A stretch of 64,000 nt of DNA from a virus. The notes beneath the pieces were generated by a model that was given only the letters and a program-made list of their open reading frames with translations, did not search any database and was not told where the DNA came from. The stretch spans positions 2,527 to 66,526 of IMG/VR virus record IMGVR_UViG_3300025009_000094; one strand, 5' to 3'. This document shows, piece by piece, positions 19,361-63,796 of the stretch. Both the position numbers and the translations under genes were made by a program. How positions within the stretch are numbered: the stretch's first letter is position 1; every line of letters begins with the position of its first letter.

Positions 19361-19936
19361 GTGATTATATTGTCAAACAAGTATACTTACACCGCTCCAT
19401 ACACCGAGGAACAACTATTTGACTTATACATAACTAAATCAATGTCTCAGGCTGAAATAGGGGAAATGTTTGGGTTTAGTCAACATAAGGTATGGCGCGA
19501 CCTTAAGCGTATGGGCATCAATTCAAGGACAGCCGTCAAGCGTAATCAACTAGGAGAAAATAATTCATCTTGGAAAGGAGGAAGAACATTAGTTAATTAC
19601 AAAACACCTGATGGTCATAAGTATCTTTCTGATAGAAATGTTACTAAGGGTTACTACATGGTCAGAGATCCTATCCATCCAAACGCTGGTAAAAACGGTT
19701 ATGTCTTTGAGCATATTGCCACTTCGTTGAAGTATGTTGGTAGAGATAGGTTAGAGGCATCGGAATGCGTCCACCACATAAATTTTATTAAAACTGATAA
19801 CCGACCTGAAAATCTCTGTGTAATCTCTAAGGAAAAGCATAGGGAGTATCACGGAAAACTGGAGAACGTCATCGGAGAGTTATTTGATAATGGAATAGTT
19901 GGTTTTGATTCCGAGCTGGGCTACTTTGTCAAGTAG
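19361..19936 (+). CDS. HNH homing endonuclease with N-terminal HTH, antisense to the operon
   Basis: SWKGG, HPNA..GYVFEH, ECVHHINFIKTDNRPENL...HREYH. Confidence 0.9.
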   Translation: MIILSNKYTYTAPYTEEQLFDLYITKSMSQAEIGEMFGFSQHKVWRDLKRMGINSRTAVKRNQLGENNSSWKGGRTLVNYKTPDGHKYLSDRNVTKGYYMVRDPIHPNAGKNGYVFEHIATSLKYVGRDRLEASECVHHINFIKTDNRPENLCVISKEKHREYHGKLENVIGELFDNGIVGFDSELGYFVK

Positions 19937-59887: not shown

Positions 59888-60163
59888 TCACCTTCTTTCT
59901 GAGCTAAGAGGGTTCGACGGGTCCCATCCTTGCTTTTGTGGTTGATACCCTACTTTTTCCCTTTTGTCGTTATCGAGTTGATAATTTAGCTGTTCAATAG
60001 CCTCAGCCATTTCCTCGATTTGCTTTGTGGCTAGGTTGATACGAGTTTGGTTATCGGTAGAGGTTTTTAGGGTTATGCCGATGAATTTACCCCAATAAAA
60101 AGCCCCTGCTGTAATAGCAAGGGTTAGAGCTAGGCATATTGATATTGTTAAGGGAGTTGGCAT
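59888..60163 (-). CDS. small membrane-anchored protein
   Basis: N-terminal TM then coiled coil. Confidence 0.55.
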   Translation of the reverse strand: MPTPLTISICLALTLAITAGAFYWGKFIGITLKTSTDNQTRINLATKQIEEMAEAIEQLNYQLDNDKREKVGYQPQKQGWDPSNPLSSERR

Positions 60164-60475
60164 TTAAGCATCCCACCCTTTCATAAAGCTTCCTTCTTCG
60201 TCTTGCTCATCTTCTATCTCTGACCAGTGTTTTCCGTTTTGGTAGGAATGGTCATGCGGTGCAGGAGAGATATACCTTGGCGTTGCTGTGCCGATTTCCT
60301 GCTCTTTTAGCTCAGGCTTGGACATAATGTAATAACGCATTTCGTCTAATGAATTATGGACAATAAGACCACCGCAAATACTGAAATTGTGGTGTTCCTT
60401 AACTTCCATATTATAAACATCTTCAAGCCCACAAGGTTTAATTGACTTGATTTTTACACTTGTCACGGTGCCCAT
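60164..60475 (-). CDS. terminase C-fragment: split intein C-half (41 aa) + C-extein
   Basis: VKIKSI...DVYNMEV..HHNF...LIVHN|SLDEMRYY; GGAAGGGA RBS before ATG 60475 (track start 60499). Confidence 0.85.
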   Translation of the reverse strand: MGTVTSVKIKSIKPCGLEDVYNMEVKEHHNFSICGGLIVHNSLDEMRYYIMSKPELKEQEIGTATPRYISPAPHDHSYQNGKHWSEIEDEQDEEGSFMKGWDA

Positions 60476-60989
60476 ATGTGTAATCCCTTCCTTGCTCATT
60501 AAACCTTTTGCGTAGTTGTTTCATTTTACAGTTATCTCCGCAATACTTGCTTCTTAAAGGGAATGCAGTTTCGTATTCATTACCACAGACAGTACACTTC
60601 TTCGCTACTTTGTTTTTGTTCCTCTTTTCCCAATTGTTTTTTCCATGCTCACTATGCCACTTCCTACCCTCTTCTGATCCGTGCCATTCTTTTGCCGCCT
60701 CAATTCCGGCAGATTGAAACCTCTTTATATGCTCATCAGTAATGGCTTTACCATGCAACGATAAATGATCACTTCTTTCCTTTAACTCTAGGTTATCTAT
60801 CTCGTTATTGCTTTTGTCAGTATCCTTATGGTGGACATCGTAACCTTTTAATATTGGACCATTATAAAACTCCCATACGTAACAATGTAAGCGTGGGCGT
60901 CTGCTATTAATATTTTTACTGCAAAGATAATACCCAGTTTTTTCGTCCCTGTTAAACCTTAACCCATTAAACTCAACTATCTTTTCCGT
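60438..60989 (-). CDS. free-standing HNH endonuclease between the split intein halves (apparent ACG start)
   Basis: open frame upstream of track ORF: IVEFNGLRFNRDEKTGYY...RLHCYVWEFYNG...DVHHKDTDKSNNEIDNL...H; C-terminal CTVC..YC..C. Confidence 0.8.
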   Translation of the reverse strand, partial: TEKIVEFNGLRFNRDEKTGYYLCSKNINSRRPRLHCYVWEFYNGPILKGYDVHHKDTDKSNNEIDNLELKERSDHLSLHGKAITDEHIKRFQSAGIEAAKEWHGSEEGRKWHSEHGKNNWEKRNKNKVAKKCTVCGNEYETAFPLRSKYCGDNCKMKQLRKRFNEQGRDYTYGHRDKCKNQVN

Positions 60990-61010
60990 AAAATCACATC
61001 TTTTCGTGGC

Positions 61011-63515
61011 TTATTTATCGGATATGTCAATTATAGAATCATCCGCGGTTAACTCTTTTACCATCTTCCATCCATTAGGAGTTAATATAGGATGGGTATC
61101 GGTGGCTTTGAATTTTCTTCCATCCTCAGTTTCAATCTCGAAAACAGCAACATTCTTCTTGGTCATTCTGACATCGTGGAACGATGATGTGGTGGGATTA
61201 CCATTATTCAGATCATAACAATGAACAAATCCAACCTTGCCAACCAAGTCCTTTATGGTGATGTCTCCATGCAATGTATTGACTATTGTATCACCCGTTA
61301 AGCAGTGATCATTCTTCTTAATCGGCTCGTCTCCATCAGGCTTCCATCTATAAGACTTAATCTCCTTGATCATATTAACGCACGTTCTAAAGATAAATAG
61401 CTTAGGCTTACCCTTGGGCCATACTTCCGTTTGTGGGTGTGGCCTGAGCTTGAGGTATTGCTTAACTCTCTGAATTCCTGACCACTTATTCTTGTCTACA
61501 ACAGTGTCGGCCTCAATACCATGTTCAGTAAATAACTCTGCCACCGACTTCTCAGCCGCTAAAGTTTTCTGATTAGCTGCACTATCAAATAGGGCATCTA
61601 GATAGCCCTTATGTCTAGGCCAACCCAAACTATTAGCAATGGCATGTATGCGCTTAGAGTGCCATTCTATCGTCTCTCCTGCCTTGTAATGCTCTGCTAT
61701 AACATATATATTTCCTTCTCCATCATAGGCGTAGAAATGACAGGCTAGGGGGGCTGCAAGGCCAGGGTCGATACTTATGTTGTCATACCAGTCGAGAGGA
61801 ATTTGAATAGGGTCAATAACATGTATTTCCTCGTTGAACTCCTTATAAACCAAACCTGACATTGCAACGAACTTACCGTATTGGCGGGATTCCCTTTCTT
61901 CTTCAGTCATCGTTTCCATGAGGGATTTGATTTCATCAGGAGATAAGTGCGGATTATCAGCCCACTCCATGAGCCAGTACTTTACGTTGGGGTCGTTCAA
62001 TTCATTAATGTAGATTGTATCGTATATCCATGTTAGACCTTGCAATGGAGTCATTGTACCCCATATTTCGCCACGGGTATCAATAATCCGCATCTTGCAC
62101 TCATCGTATATCTCTTTTGGCGGTTCCTCGTCGAACCATATCCAGCCTTGGCTAGTACCCTGGAATTTAGCTCTGCCTTGATCGCATGACTTAAACCCTA
62201 TGGTGTGCCCATTCTTCAGGACAATAAAGTCAAGGATAGCATTTTCGGGGTCATCTTTTCGCCCTGACCTGACATGAATATCCGCTATTTCAGCTTTTGG
62301 TAGCCATTTAAGAACTTCCTTTTGAGCAACGTCACGCTGTACCTCGTTTGTAAGGGATACAACCCAGCCATTACTAGGTTTTTTGTCAGGCTTATGTGGA
62401 TGTGTACCCGTTGCCATCCATACCGCTTCTACAGCTCCACAGACCGTTTTTCCGGTATTGTGATGAATAACTCCATCCATGTAATAGTTCTCGTACTCAG
62501 GAACAGTAAAGTCCCATTTGTAATCTTTCCTATTAAGTGATATACTTATTACAACCGAAAAGTTTTTACTATTATGGGAGGAATTATCTAATGTCGAGGT
62601 GTAACAAATTGATTCTCTCGGATGAACAAGTATCTCAGATTCGCATATGGGTTGAGGTTGAGAAAAAGACTCTAAAGTGGGTTTCTGAACAAATTGGATG
62701 CGTGAATCAGAATGTGACAAAAATATGTCGCAAGCATGACATCCAGACGCAACGCACTGGTCCAAGGAGTGGAGAAGGTCATCCAAATTGGAAGGGCGGG
62801 CGTCAGTATGACAAACATGGTTACGTTCTAGTTTACGCGAAAGGTCATCCTCGCGCCCGCAAGCCTCGTTGTGCCTATACCTATGAACATATTCTTGTAA
62901 TGGAGAGACATCTTGGACGCTACTTGCTTCCCGGAGAGGTTGTTCATCATATAAATGGAGAAAATGGCGATAATCGAATTGAGAATCTTGAACTCTTTGA
63001 ATCAAACGCTCAACATTTGCGCCATGAATTAACTGGTCATACACCTCAATGGACCGAGGATGGTAAAGTTCGCATCCAACTTGGCATTGAGAAATCTGCT
63101 CGTATAAACCATTCGAGAGCAAAACACGATGATTTAGTGATGCTGTAAATTTACTGCCATCGCTTAGGGATATATCATACAAAGAATCTATATCATCATG
63201 ATGAAACGGTCTTAACGCTTTTGTAATAACAAGGGCGTTTTTCTTTTCGTCATATGCGTATACATGGAAATCTTCATTTATGTTTTGGACTTCCCTATAT
63301 TCTTTCATAATGGGATCGTATATTTTACTTTCCCCCGCTATGCAACGATTGCCCCCCCATACCCAGCGATTGCGATTAACAGACTTATGAAAATCCTCCT
63401 GCTTCTTATGGGGAATATAATAGCGAAGGGCTTCTTCTTTTCGCCTACGAGCTAGTTCTTGCCGGACAACCTCAAGGGAAGGGATATCCTTATTTGTTAG
63501 TTTTGGTTTAGCCAT
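61011..63515 (-). CDS. terminase large subunit N-fragment with cis intein and terminal N-intein
   Basis: GGNR|intein|TGKT Walker A, WFDEEPP Walker B, TMTPL, SIDPG, KKNDH|CL. Confidence 0.92.
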   Translation of the reverse strand: MAKPKLTNKDIPSLEVVRQELARRRKEEALRYYIPHKKQEDFHKSVNRNRWVWGGNRCIAGESKIYDPIMKEYREVQNINEDFHVYAYDEKKNALVITKALRPFHHDDIDSLYDISLSDGSKFTASLNHRVLLSNGLYEQISQCQVGCELYHPRSIEVYDQLIHGANVERLIQRVQDSQFDYRHFLHLYDEQPLREASSVQDVSPLQEYVHRYRHNEACGREDDLSRKLERNHVCHTDARPSNLDDLLHSLDQCVASGCHACDIFLSHSDSRIQFVQKPTLESFSQPQPICESEILVHPRESICYTSTLDNSSHNSKNFSVVISISLNRKDYKWDFTVPEYENYYMDGVIHHNTGKTVCGAVEAVWMATGTHPHKPDKKPSNGWVVSLTNEVQRDVAQKEVLKWLPKAEIADIHVRSGRKDDPENAILDFIVLKNGHTIGFKSCDQGRAKFQGTSQGWIWFDEEPPKEIYDECKMRIIDTRGEIWGTMTPLQGLTWIYDTIYINELNDPNVKYWLMEWADNPHLSPDEIKSLMETMTEEERESRQYGKFVAMSGLVYKEFNEEIHVIDPIQIPLDWYDNISIDPGLAAPLACHFYAYDGEGNIYVIAEHYKAGETIEWHSKRIHAIANSLGWPRHKGYLDALFDSAANQKTLAAEKSVAELFTEHGIEADTVVDKNKWSGIQRVKQYLKLRPHPQTEVWPKGKPKLFIFRTCVNMIKEIKSYRWKPDGDEPIKKNDHCLTGDTIVNTLHGDITIKDLVGKVGFVHCYDLNNGNPTTSSFHDVRMTKKNVAVFEIETEDGRKFKATDTHPILTPNGWKMVKELTADDSIIDISDK
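61014..61304 (-). other. split intein N-half (97 aa)
   Basis: CLTGDTIV block A, ATDTHPIL block B, then stop. Confidence 0.9.
62457..63344 (-). other. cis intein (296 aa) in terminase Walker A
   Basis: CIAGESKI block A, ASLNHRVL block B, WDFTVPEYENYYMDGVIHHN|T blocks F/G. Confidence 0.9.
62591..63148 (+). CDS. HNH homing endonuclease encoded antisense inside the intein
   Basis: GGGAGG RBS; HTH, HPNWKGG, HPRA...YEHILVME..LGR, EVVHHINGENGDNRIENL. Confidence 0.9.
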   Translation: MSRCNKLILSDEQVSQIRIWVEVEKKTLKWVSEQIGCVNQNVTKICRKHDIQTQRTGPRSGEGHPNWKGGRQYDKHGYVLVYAKGHPRARKPRCAYTYEHILVMERHLGRYLLPGEVVHHINGENGDNRIENLELFESNAQHLRHELTGHTPQWTEDGKVRIQLGIEKSARINHSRAKHDDLVML

Positions 63516-63699
63516 GATTACACCACTCTATCCAAGTTGGTATCCAGATCATTTCTCTACACTTACTACTCTCCCATCTTGTACATGAAGCACAGTTTGT
63601 TTTGTCGTAATGTTTATCTAGGGGGATGAATTGTTTACATGCTCTGTTTTCATTTGACATAATTTCACTCCTGAATAGCTTATCCTTAACCATTGGCAA
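63508..63699 (-). CDS. small Cys-rich hypothetical protein
   Basis: overlaps terminase start; CASCTRW. Confidence 0.45.
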   Translation of the reverse strand: MPMVKDKLFRSEIMSNENRACKQFIPLDKHYDKTNCASCTRWESSKCREMIWIPTWIEWCNHG

Positions 63700-63796
63700 T
63701 ACGTTTAACAGTACGTTTGTAGTATCATCGCCTGTCCTTAACGGTGGACATGGTTAAAATTGCTTATAATCAAGGGTTTGAGTTTGGAAGAAGGAA

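What the first reader, a model, noticed from the sequence alone, without database searches (positions are those of the whole stretch)
62457..63344. Intein whose interior is a complete HNH endonuclease gene on the opposite strand (dual-coded ~560 nt)
Seen: the terminase Walker A (GGNR|TGKT) is split by a 296-aa intein with blocks A, B, F and G. Between B and F the minus-strand translation has no recognisable endonuclease motif yet is stop-free. The plus strand of the same DNA (62591-63148) encodes a full HTH-HNH nuclease with its own GGGAGG RBS. Known: intein homing endonucleases are normally in-frame domains of the intein. Inference: a free-standing HNH invaded a mini-intein in reverse orientation and was tolerated because its antisense frame is open and is spliced out. 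This gives a composite mobile element whose nuclease can be expressed independently of the late terminase transcript, and whose mRNA is antisense to terL.
Basis: partly seen in the sequence, partly recalled or inferred. Interest (0 to 1): 0.9.

Follow-up and report, generated by a model that had tools for sequence, protein, structure and literature searches.

The report
Terminase intein with antisense HNH gene
A phage DNA-packaging gene is interrupted in its ATP-binding loop by a self-splicing intein whose DNA-cutting "homing" enzyme is a separate, intact gene on the opposite strand; the layout is real and kept by selection, but it is an HNH version of an arrangement already published for other nucleases.

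Summary
The minus-strand terL ORF (61011-63515) carries a 296-aa class-1 intein (62457-63344) between GGNR and TGKT. The plus strand of its interior (62591-63148) encodes a 185-aa HTH-HNH_3 nuclease behind a GGGAGG.

- Recurrence: the same layout, in the same relative frame, occurs in 17 DNA loci from viral and metagenomic contigs.
- Open frame: the intein frame has 0 stops across the HNH gene in 15 loci and 1 stop in 2. About 4-11 are expected; P(0)=1.2e-5 for the window.
- Selection: codon-position divergence shows selection on the HNH frame in the insert and on the intein frame in the Hint lobes.
- Fold: AlphaFold folds the Hint lobes (pLDDT >90) and the HNH (mean 81), but not the in-frame insert (29-47).
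- Empty allele: a roughly 90%-identical phage in an independent study lacks exactly the 888 nt and reads GGNRTGKT.

Antisense homing-endonuclease inteins are already published for LAGLIDADG and VSR-like nucleases (bioRxiv 10.1101/2025.01.02.630785). Seven searches found no HNH version in print.

This scan met the same family before on other DNA. Expression, splicing and cleavage are untested.

The parts
61011..63515 (-). terL first ORF, 834 aa. It holds the N-extein, intein 1, the ATPase and most of the nuclease domain, and the N-part of a second intein, and ends at TAA.
   Evidence: Pfam Terminase_6N E 5.3e-16 and Intein_splicing E 1.4e-17
63345..63515 (-). N-extein, 57 aa from the ATG, ending GGNR (first half of Walker A)
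62457..63344 (-). Intein 1, 296 aa, class-1 type: Cys1, SxxH block B (H72), block F Asp, terminal His-Asn, +1 Thr
   Evidence: The model matches 16 solved inteins at E<=0.001, best the Ssp DnaB mini-intein at 2.3e-6.
63048..63344 (-). Hint N-lobe, intein residues 1-99
   Evidence: pLDDT 76-97 per 10-residue block; third codon position the most variable among 6 loci
62565..63047 (-). In-frame insert, intein residues 100-260. It is stop-free but has no confident fold and no family match. It is read here as a linker whose only constraint is to stay open.
   Evidence: pLDDT 29-47; 0 PHROG families; second codon position the most variable; stop depletion
62457..62564 (-). Hint C-lobe, intein residues 261-296 (blocks F and G)
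   Evidence: pLDDT 91-95; D274, D278, N296 invariant in 11 sequences
62591..63148 (+). HNH endonuclease gene, 185 aa plus stop: N-terminal three-helix HTH (about residues 11-48), HNH core (about 68-149), C-terminal helix
62576..62581 (+). Shine-Dalgarno GGGAGG, 9 nt before the HNH ATG, inside the intein coding sequence
   Evidence: read. A GGAGG-type site 7-11 nt before the HNH start is clear in 14 of 17 loci, weak in 2 and absent in 1 (no shuffle control).
62518..62575 (+). Two overlapping sigma-70-like promoter matches just upstream of the HNH ribosome-binding site (candidates only)
   Evidence: 9 of 12 matches each; the count in the region is not above shuffles
63214..63249 (+). Terminator-like hairpin plus T-run, 66 nt after the HNH stop, inside the Hint N-lobe coding sequence (candidate only)
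   Evidence: L034 has one at the same place with one compensating pair; 5 of 15 loci have one within 200 nt against a background of 68 of 718 windows, P=0.010
63048..63148 (.). Zone where both strands encode predicted structured protein: the HNH C-terminal tail (residues about 153-185) and Hint residues 67-99 with block B
62445..62456 (-). First four C-extein codons, TGKT. Together with 63345-63356 (GGNR) they form the insertion (homing) site.
   Evidence: The empty allele joins these two sides.

Best explanation

Proposed working:
- terL is translated straight through the antisense of the HNH gene. This gives a roughly 160-residue unstructured loop between the two Hint lobes.
- The lobes fold, splice and release the loop with the intein, restoring GGNRTGKT.
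- The HNH is made from its own plus-strand message, using a Shine-Dalgarno site embedded in the intein coding sequence.
- The HNH nicks or cuts intein-less terL alleles near the P-loop codons in co-infecting relatives. Repair then copies the intein plus HNH in.

Selection acts on the HNH frame for protein sequence. On the intein frame across the insert it acts only against stop codons.

Shown: the anatomy, recurrence, the selection signatures on both strands, the predicted folds, the presence/absence polymorphism and the decay products.

Inferred: splicing, separate transcription, nuclease activity and target.
For: 1. Recurrence
- 17 DNA loci have the antisense HNH inside a terminase P-loop intein, all in the same relative frame. 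That is 14 lineages if the close trio L043/44/45 and the pair L046/48 count once each.
- Four protein-only relatives read through an alignable insert.

2. Stop avoidance
- There are 0 intein-frame stops in 15 of 17 loci and 1 in each of L040 and L047. Expected numbers are 4.1-11.3, with P(0) from 7e-7 to 5e-3 per locus.
- 0 of 88 at-risk dicodons use a stop-making codon in the first six loci. In 21 relatives outside this layout the figure is 454 of 982.

3. Which frame is selected (6 loci)
- Hint lobes: third intein-codon position most variable (0.52-0.78), second least (0.24-0.44).
- Insert columns 106-225: second position most variable (0.39-0.67), third least (0.15-0.48). The intein second position is the HNH wobble position.

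4. HNH integrity
- H119, H120 and E99-H100 are invariant, and N132 and H142 nearly invariant, in 16 sequences.
- Pfam and PHROG hits.
- Model mean pLDDT 81; I-HmuI Z 6.9 over 78 residues.

5. Intein integrity
- C1 nearly invariant; H72, D274, D278 and N296 invariant.
- Lobes have pLDDT >90 and match solved mini-inteins, while the insert is at 29-47.

6. Translation signal
- A GGAGG-type site precedes the HNH start in 14 of 17 loci.

7. Mobility
- Run X5 (another study) holds both a contig with the intein (1 difference in 1351 nt) and a roughly 90%-identical contig lacking exactly 888 nt.
- Between terminases only 21-30% identical, the HNH is 35-61% and the Hint N-lobe 33-58% identical.
- L041 keeps the intein but has lost about 420 nt of HNH core.
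Against: - No RNA or protein data; no RNA holder was listed for this stretch.
- Splicing with a 160-residue unstructured insert is assumed from what inteins are known to tolerate at this site. It is not tested for this one.
- Two loci (L040, L047) carry one stop in the intein frame. The frame is therefore not always intact, unless these are errors, dead copies or split forms.
- The Shine-Dalgarno tally has no shuffle control.
- Promoter-like and terminator-like hits in the window are no more numerous than in shuffles.
- L003 and the L043-48 group lack the penultimate His.
- The empty allele rests on one Logan contig of 463 nt.
- The null model used the window's codon usage for all loci.
- All relatives are uncultured contigs; no host or phage is in hand.
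- Structural matches of the HNH are modest. Foldseek finds nothing at E<=0.001, and the tool warns that a Z under 8 may be a common arrangement.
Confidence: 0.8

Rival explanations
1. The HNH ORF is a relic. The endonuclease no longer works or is not expressed, and the intein is now inherited vertically. The ORF is intact only because it is recent or because the intein frame constrains it.
For: - No expression data (no RNA holder listed).
- Promoter and terminator matches in the window are not above chance.
- Decay does happen in this family: L041 lost the HNH core.
Against: - The substitution pattern in the insert is that of purifying selection on the HNH frame, not the intein frame.
- Catalytic residues are invariant across 16 sequences that are only 31-72% identical to the window's.
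- The ribosome-binding site is kept in 14 of 17 loci.
- The element is more conserved than its hosts.
Confidence: 0.08
2. The HNH works for the phage rather than for the intein. It could be a terminase-associated HNH needed for DNA packaging, or a weapon against competing phages. Its place inside the intein would then be incidental.
For: - HNH genes next to terminase genes are common in phages (abstract of PMC3592412, seen in the listing).
- The gene sits inside terL.
Against: - The closely related empty allele lacks the HNH together with the intein. L041 lacks the HNH core. The HNH is therefore dispensable.
- The same HNH-plus-intein unit sits in terminases only 21-30% identical, and in an AAA_5 ATPase.
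- A competitive benefit to the phage through marker exclusion is not excluded and would be compatible with homing.
Confidence: 0.07
3. Intein 1 does not splice in cis. Either terL is a dead gene in a defective element, or the two halves are made separately and work as a split intein, as in fractured genes.
For: - The same gene's second intein is fractured: an in-frame TAA, and the C-part in another frame.
- L040 and L047 have one stop in the insert.
Against: - One uninterrupted ORF spans intein 1 in the window and in 15 of 17 loci, with P(0 stops) of 1e-5 or so each. A split form would not need this.
- The genome is rated 100% complete.
- The sequence recurs unchanged in several studies.
Confidence: 0.04
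4. The in-frame insert is itself a functional, so far unknown domain, and the plus-strand HNH likeness is secondary.
For: It is stop-free and alignable among relatives.
Against: - Its second codon position is the most variable.
- pLDDT is 29-47, with the same kind of alignment that folds the other strand's product.
- No Pfam or PHROG family matches.
- Only 3 weak or close hits among 1.84 billion representatives.
- Its conserved patches are the mirror of conserved HNH motifs.
Confidence: 0.01

Closest known systems
Non-canonical inteins with an antisense homing-endonuclease ORF. These include antisense LAGLIDADG (Synechocystis DnaX and a Chloroflexus SpoVR-like protein; Gorbalenya 1998 and Gogarten 2002, as cited in the preprint). 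They also include antisense LAGLIDADG and VSR-like endonucleases in actinobacteriophage inteins, terminase among them (Gosselin, Arsenault and Gogarten, bioRxiv 10.1101/2025.01.02.630785; abstract, sections 8 and 15 and passages read).
   Same: - The endonuclease ORF lies on the opposite strand in the endonuclease slot.
- The intein frame stays open.
- The in-frame insert has no recognisable structure.
- The terminase large subunit is a host.
- There are signs of continued transfer.
- The proposed origin is a free-standing endonuclease gene.
   Different: - The nuclease here is an HTH-HNH_3 protein. In that survey HNH occurs only in frame.
- The hosts here are uncultured groundwater, sediment and other environmental phages, not actinobacteriophages.
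- This report adds a measured stop-avoidance signal, a codon-position test, a conserved Shine-Dalgarno site and an empty allele.
- The preprint's supplements were not open to me and may list cases that I could not see.
[quoted passage not shown] 1997, as cited in the preprint). Examples fetched here: L008, L010-L013, L015, in another P-loop protein (...VVHN|CGKT).
   Same: The same HNH_3 family (47-56% identity over 75-93 residues), a P-loop insertion site, and the same slot in the intein.
   Different: - There the HNH is a domain of the intein polypeptide on the same strand.
- Those HNHs form their own clade (SH-aLRT 95), apart from the antisense ones, in a quick tree.
- They carry a zinc-ribbon-like segment instead of the N-terminal HTH (by eye).
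Fractured genes: split inteins with a free-standing endonuclease gene between the halves (Dassa et al. 2009, PMC2677866; abstract seen in the listing)
   Same: A free-standing endonuclease gene occupies the endonuclease slot of an intein in phage-like environmental DNA. The window's second terL intein has this layout.
   Different: Intein 1 is one continuous ORF, and selection keeps it so. In fractured genes the intein is in two ORFs and the endonuclease is VSR-like.
ShiLan element: a hidden out-of-frame HNH inside a phage methylase gene (Arsenault, Gosselin and Gogarten 2025, PMC11855218; abstract and section 4.3 read)
   Same: An HNH gene is overprinted on a host reading frame that stays stop-free, and the element is mobile.
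   Different: - It lies on the same strand in another frame.
- There is no intein, so the insert stays in the host protein.
- No ribosome-binding site was detectable there, whereas one is conserved here.
I-HmuI, an HNH homing endonuclease of a phage group I intron (PDB 1u3e)
   Same: It is the best nuclease match of the HNH model: Z 6.9, rmsd 3.4, 78 residues aligned to model residues 64-150. That it nicks one strand is recalled, not tested.
   Different: - It is intron-encoded.
- Its DNA-binding extension is C-terminal, whereas here an HTH is N-terminal.
- Sequence identity is 19%. Foldseek gives E 0.23 only.

Membership tests
Class-1 intein (Hint splicing domain, Pfam PF14890) | Score above the curated Pfam cut-off | tested here: met
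   64.4 bits for TerL and 36.9 bits for the intein alone, cut-off 35.8
Class-1 intein (Hint splicing domain, Pfam PF14890) | Catalytic set: Cys/Ser1, block B [TS]xxH, block F Asp, terminal (His)-Asn, and a nucleophile at +1 | tested here: met
   - The window has C1, S69-x-x-H72, D274/D278, H295-N296 and +1 Thr.
- H72, D274, D278 and N296 are invariant and C1 nearly invariant in 11 sequences.
- The penultimate His is absent in L003 and in L043-48.
Class-1 intein (Hint splicing domain, Pfam PF14890) | Hint fold | tested here: met
   - Residues 1-99 and 261-296 have pLDDT >90.
- There are 16 PDB matches at E<=0.001, all inteins. The best is the Ssp DnaB mini-intein, E 2.3e-6, TM by target 0.76-0.85.
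Class-1 intein (Hint splicing domain, Pfam PF14890) | Precise in-frame insertion: an allele without it restores the host motif | tested here: met
   The X5 contig lacks a net 888 nt and reads GGNRTGKT across the joint (translated by hand).
Class-1 intein (Hint splicing domain, Pfam PF14890) | Protein splicing | not testable with these tools
   Needs expression.
HNH (His-Me finger) endonuclease, Pfam HNH_3 PF13392 | Score above the curated cut-off, and catalytic His...Asn...His kept | tested here: met
   - 40.5 bits, cut-off 24.8.
- H119/H120 invariant; N132 and H142 in at least 90% of 16 sequences.
- 13 PHROG families named HNH endonuclease, best 9.3e-24.
HNH (His-Me finger) endonuclease, Pfam HNH_3 PF13392 | Beta-beta-alpha-metal fold | tested here: inconclusive
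   Core pLDDT 80-96; I-HmuI Z 6.9; but no Foldseek match at E<=0.001.
HNH (His-Me finger) endonuclease, Pfam HNH_3 PF13392 | Site-specific cleavage of the empty allele (homing endonuclease in the strict sense) | not testable with these tools
   Needs enzyme assays.
Non-canonical intein with an antisense homing endonuclease | A complete endonuclease ORF on the opposite strand between the splicing blocks, with the intein frame uninterrupted | tested here: met
   15 of 17 loci have 0 stops
Non-canonical intein with an antisense homing endonuclease | The in-frame insert has no recognisable domain | tested here: met
Non-canonical intein with an antisense homing endonuclease | Endonuclease of the LAGLIDADG or VSR-like type (the published cases) | tested here: not met
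   It is HNH_3. Hence a variant, not a further member of the published types.
Split intein / fractured gene | N- and C-intein parts in separate ORFs | tested here: not met
   Intein 1 is one ORF. The feature is met only by the second intein of the same gene.

The most novel reading that the evidence does not exclude
Antisense-endonuclease inteins may be the standing pool from which natural split inteins arise.

- Once the endonuclease slot is filled by a gene read from the other strand, the intein's middle is a linker whose only requirement is the absence of stops.
- One nonsense hit then yields a two-piece intein that survives if translation restarts.
- This terL would show the states side by side. 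Intein 1 is contiguous with an antisense HNH. L040 and L047 are relatives with exactly one stop. Intein 2 is already fractured around an HNH gene.
- A second bold reading: the conserved plus-strand expression signals make the HNH message a natural antisense RNA to terL, tying endonuclease expression to packaging-gene expression.
Probability: 0.2. Interest if true: 0.7.

Novelty: new variant of a known kind. Interest (0 to 1): 0.5.

Why it matters
- Annotation: these elements are invisible to gene callers that allow one gene per stretch. The terminase is called as one long protein and the nuclease is lost, or the intein is taken for a decaying one.
- Scope of the layout: an HNH version, spread over very different terminases and at least one other ATPase, shows the antisense layout is a general solution. 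It is not a curiosity of LAGLIDADG genes or of actinobacteriophages.
- Overlapping genes: the family is a clean natural case in which one strand is selected for protein sequence and the other only for the absence of stops. That can calibrate methods that look for overlapping genes.
- Expression: the conserved ribosome-binding site offers an answer to the question, raised for hidden endonucleases, of how they are translated.
- Engineering: it suggests this Hint scaffold tolerates about 160 unstructured residues in the endonuclease slot.

Tried and rejected
Searches that gave nothing useful
- Phage records: megablast of 60000-63600 and tblastn of the intein found nothing.
- Genome collection: an intein profile found no relative among 43 pattern matches.
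The DNA of P0005-P0008 was therefore never seen, and their antisense HNH is inferred only from the alignable insert.
- P0008 in viral contigs gave only intein-less homologues, L051 and L052.
- Expression: no RNA holder listed.
- The in-frame insert searched alone against 1.84 billion representatives gave 3 hits (P0005 at 1.2e-15, two weak ones). Family size cannot be measured that way.
- The HNH profile against PDB sequences gave one match to a designed repeat protein, which I disregard.
- Foldseek of the HNH model gave no match at E<=0.001.
- Cluster look-up gave no names.

Weak or corrected analyses
- Promoter and terminator scan of 62000-63600: 4 promoter-like and 1 terminator-like sites, against 4.3 and 1.4 in shuffles. 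They are position-compatible candidates only.
One search replaced it with an exact calculation.
- In one search I tested 6 of 15 loci with a hairpin. The right count is 5 of 15. One search gives P=0.010. window/L034 and L027/L042 are relatives, so this is weak.

Rows left out
- One search used the first 6 loci only.
- One search used 10 of 17 loci (those with both junctions and enough C-extein).
- The tree left out L040 (partial), L045, L014, L020 and L025 (near copies). It used the quick method. Several rows have long branches.

Readings considered and rejected
- An alternative genetic code: all frames are ordinary under table 11.
- An intron instead of an intein: the Hint blocks and the in-frame 888-nt difference argue for an intein.
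- The insert as a degenerate in-frame endonuclease: no motif, and the wrong codon-position pattern.


Full report
**1. What is there**

The window is 64 kb of a 66.5-kb virus record rated 100% complete.
- On the minus strand, ORF 61011-63515 (834 aa) is a large terminase subunit: Pfam Terminase_6N, E 5.3e-16.
- Its Walker A loop is split, GGNR|...|TGKT, by 296 residues (62457-63344). They begin with Cys and end in His-Asn. Together with the exteins they score 64.4 bits on Pfam Intein_splicing, cut-off 35.8.
- On the plus strand, 62591-63148 encodes 185 residues that hit Pfam HNH_3 (E 2e-10) and 14 PHROG families, 13 of them named HNH endonuclease, best 9.3e-24.
- GGGAGG lies at 62576-62581, 9 nt before the ATG.
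- GC and AT skew change sign over about 62500-63100, as expected if that stretch codes on the plus strand.

**2. More than chance**

Across the HNH gene the intein frame has no stop. The other two antisense frames have 8 and 19.
- A stop in the intein frame arises when an HNH codon ending in TT, TC or CT is followed by a codon that starts with A.
- With the HNH protein fixed and codons redrawn from the window's usage (12,050 codons), 8.6 stops are expected. The exact probability of none is 1.2e-5.
- In 21 loci where relatives of this HNH stand free or are in-frame domains, the same relative frame carries 4-80 stops. There, 454 of 982 at-risk dicodons use a stop-making codon.
- In the first six loci with the antisense layout the figure is 0 of 88.
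- Some of the 21 are near copies of each other, and six of them are long ORFs counted whole.

**3. A family, not a singleton**

Searches with the HNH, the intein and an intein profile fetched 17 DNA loci with the same layout. They ran in viral contigs and metagenome contigs.
- The 17 loci are the window (= L032/L033), L034, L040, L003 (= L028), L004, L026 (= L035), L027 (= L038, L039), L023, L036, L037, L042, L043, L044, L045, L046, L048 (= L049) and L047.
- In the six loci checked for this, the antisense codon starts at HNH codon position 2. The stop counts of all 17 were made in that frame.
- Fifteen loci have no stop in the intein frame across the HNH gene. L040 and L047 have exactly one. 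Expected numbers are 4.1-11.3 per locus (window codon usage for all).
- In the L043-L048 group both strands are open for about 290-314 codons.
- A protein search with the intein region found three more terminases (P0005-P0007, 44-54% identical over the whole intein). It also found an AAA_5 ATPase (P0008, 30%) with an alignable insert in its own P-loop.

**4. Which strand is selected where**

A codon alignment of six inteins gives mean pairwise differences by intein codon position.

| Region (alignment columns) | Position 1 | Position 2 | Position 3 |
|---|---|---|---|
| N-lobe (1-90) | 0.41-0.66 | 0.32-0.44 | 0.58-0.78 |
| Last block (301-315) | 0.28 | 0.24 | 0.52 |
| Insert (106-225) | 0.18-0.46 | 0.39-0.67 | 0.15-0.48 |

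- The N-lobe and the last block show the usual pattern of a selected protein.
- In the insert the order flips. Intein position 2 is the complement of HNH position 3, and intein position 3 the complement of HNH position 2.
- The insert therefore evolves as an HNH gene. The intein frame there is constrained only against stops.
- The HNH tail (residues about 153-185) overlaps Hint residues 67-99, including block B. There the intein pattern prevails or the two are mixed.

**5. Structure predictions agree**

- Intein model, with an 11-sequence alignment: residues 1-99 and 261-296 have pLDDT 76-97, and residues 100-260 have 29-47.
- The folded part matches 16 solved inteins at E<=0.001. The best is the Ssp DnaB mini-intein, 2.3e-6.
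- HNH model, with a 16-sequence alignment of the other strand's product: mean pLDDT 81. It has a three-helix N-terminal domain, a core at 68-149 and a C-terminal helix.
- Best structural neighbours: an HTH domain (GcrA, Z 7.5, 48 residues) for the N-terminus, and the homing endonuclease I-HmuI (Z 6.9, rmsd 3.4, 78 residues) for the core.
- Foldseek alone gave no match at E<=0.001. The tool warns that Z under 8 can reflect a common arrangement.
- H119/H120 and E99-H100 are invariant, and N132 and H142 nearly so, in the 16 HNH sequences.
- In the inteins, H72, D274, D278 and N296 are invariant and C1 nearly so.

**6. Signals for separate expression**

- A GGAGG-type site lies 7-11 nt before the most likely HNH start in 14 of 17 loci. 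It is weak in L040 and L023 and absent in L047. I ran no shuffle control.
- In the window, two promoter-like matches lie at 62518-62575. One terminator-like hairpin with a T-run lies at 63214-63249. The counts in the region do not exceed shuffles.
- A hairpin plus T-run lies within 200 nt after the HNH stop in 5 of 15 loci. The background is 68 of 718 windows, P=0.010.
- The window and L034 have the hairpin at the same place, with one compensating base-pair change. They are close relatives.
- No RNA run holds the stretch (recorded under Tried and rejected).

**7. Mobility**

Contigs of four runs from four other studies were laid on 60000-63700.
- Run X5 holds a 1351-nt contig that contains the intein, with 1 difference.
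- X5 also holds a 463-nt contig, about 90% identical in the flanks (43 differences in 450 nt). It joins 62453 to 63355 with 13 other letters between. That is a net loss of exactly 888 nt, the length of the intein.
- Translated by hand, the joint reads Gly-Gly-Asn-Arg-Thr followed by Gly-Lys-Thr: an intact Walker A.
- Six of the 13 junction letters differ from the window's flanking extein codons, and all six are synonymous (my reading). That is more than the flanks predict (P=7e-4).
- This excess fits either a target site that has drifted out of the nuclease's reach or co-converted donor flanks. It rests on one contig.

Between terminases whose first 230 C-extein residues are only 21-30% identical, the HNH is 35-61% identical and the Hint N-lobe 33-58%.
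- The reverse also occurs. L044 and L046 have exteins 89% identical and Hint lobes 76% identical, but HNHs only 48% identical. This suggests that the nuclease module can be exchanged.
- L041, a relative of L026, keeps the Hint lobes, the ribosome-binding site and both ends of the HNH ORF. It lacks about 420 nt of HNH core, which makes it a mini-intein in the making.
- L037 has the element three codons further along the P-loop (after GK) than its relative L003.

**8. Origin**

The same HNH_3 family occurs in three states:
- free-standing (for example L005-L007, L009, and a paralogue in this genome at window 19457-19816);
- as an in-frame intein domain in another P-loop protein (L008, L010-L013, L015);
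- antisense in terminase inteins.

A quick tree of 33 rows puts nine antisense HNHs in one group (SH-aLRT 89) and four in another (93), and leaves L023 and L047 unresolved. The in-frame ones form their own clade (95). One origin of the antisense state is not ruled out. This does not decide between invasion by a free-standing gene and inversion of an in-frame domain.

**9. What is known**

Seven full-text searches found no paper describing an antisense HNH gene in an intein. The layout itself is published.
- The preprint of Gosselin, Arsenault and Gogarten (10.1101/2025.01.02.630785; abstract, sections 8 and 15 and passages read) describes actinobacteriophage inteins, terminase among them. [quoted passage not shown]
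- It cites Gorbalenya 1998 and Gogarten 2002 for earlier antisense LAGLIDADG cases. In that survey HNH occurs only in frame.
- The same group described a hidden out-of-frame HNH in a methylase gene and asked how it is translated (PMC11855218; abstract and section 4.3 read).
- This scan has noted the same terminase-intein-with-antisense-HNH family on other DNA: 62 notes in at least 47 genomes hold the search words. One note reports an SbcC host. I did not test those.

**10. Verdict**

The finding is real and well supported as a selected, two-strand selfish element. It is an HNH variant of a known, rare-in-print architecture.

Splicing, separate transcription, nuclease activity and target remain inferences.

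Noticed in passing
window 60164-61304: The same terL has a second intein in the nuclease motif (KKNDH|C...VHN|SLDEMRY).
- It is not one ORF. An in-frame TAA (61011-61013) is followed in the same frame by an HNH domain without an early start codon.
- An ATG-started C-part then lies in another frame.
- A relative in run X5 lacks the region: it skips 976 nt with 24 letters between, a net 952 nt, which is not a multiple of 3.
   Followed up: partly
L040:2-500 and L047:3-1150: Two relatives have exactly one stop in the intein frame inside the antisense HNH region, with the rest of the frame open through to the C-extein. L047's HNH looks intact; L040's is cut by the contig end. They could be sequencing errors, fresh knock-outs or nascent split inteins.
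   Followed up: partly
L041:2494-2873 against L026:1560-2420: A mini-intein derivative. About 420 nt of HNH core are deleted, while the Hint lobes, the antisense ribosome-binding site and both ends of the HNH ORF remain. The contig ends inside block F.
   Followed up: yes
L037:2306-4600 against L003:356-2632: Related terminases carry the element at two sites of the same P-loop, three codons apart: GANRIGK|C...HHN|ST against GGNR|C...NRN|SGKS.
   Followed up: partly
L043-L046, L048: - A subgroup has a longer HNH (290-314 aa) with an extra C-terminal region. Both strands are open for about 290-314 codons, and the intein ends ...AN|C or ...EN|C instead of ...HN|T.
- L044 and L046 share 89% extein identity but only 48% HNH identity.
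   Followed up: partly
P0008 (protein only); L051:1501-2502, L052:5-925: An intein of the same kind, with an alignable insert, sits in the P-loop (GESG|C...HHN|TGKT) of an AAA_5 ATPase. Two viral contigs encode intein-less homologues, 72-77% identical. The DNA of P0008 was not available, so its antisense HNH is not verified.
   Followed up: partly
L008, L010, L011, L012, L013, L015: [quoted passage not shown] They were found as relatives of the window's HNH.
   Followed up: partly
window 62454-62456 and 63345-63354 against the X5 contig: At the empty allele's junction, 6 of 13 letters differ from the window's extein codons, all synonymously, against 43 of 450 in the flanks (P=7e-4). This could be a homing-resistant target or a co-conversion tract. 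It rests on one contig (comparison by hand).
   Followed up: partly
window 19457-19816: A free-standing HNH paralogue in the same genome: 33% identity over 122 residues by tblastn, 47% over residues 61-139 by HMMER.
   Followed up: no
L032 and L033: The same 5.9-kb stretch occurs twice, 66,392 nt apart, on one 164-kb metagenome contig. This suggests that the phage genome was assembled as a concatemer.
   Followed up: no
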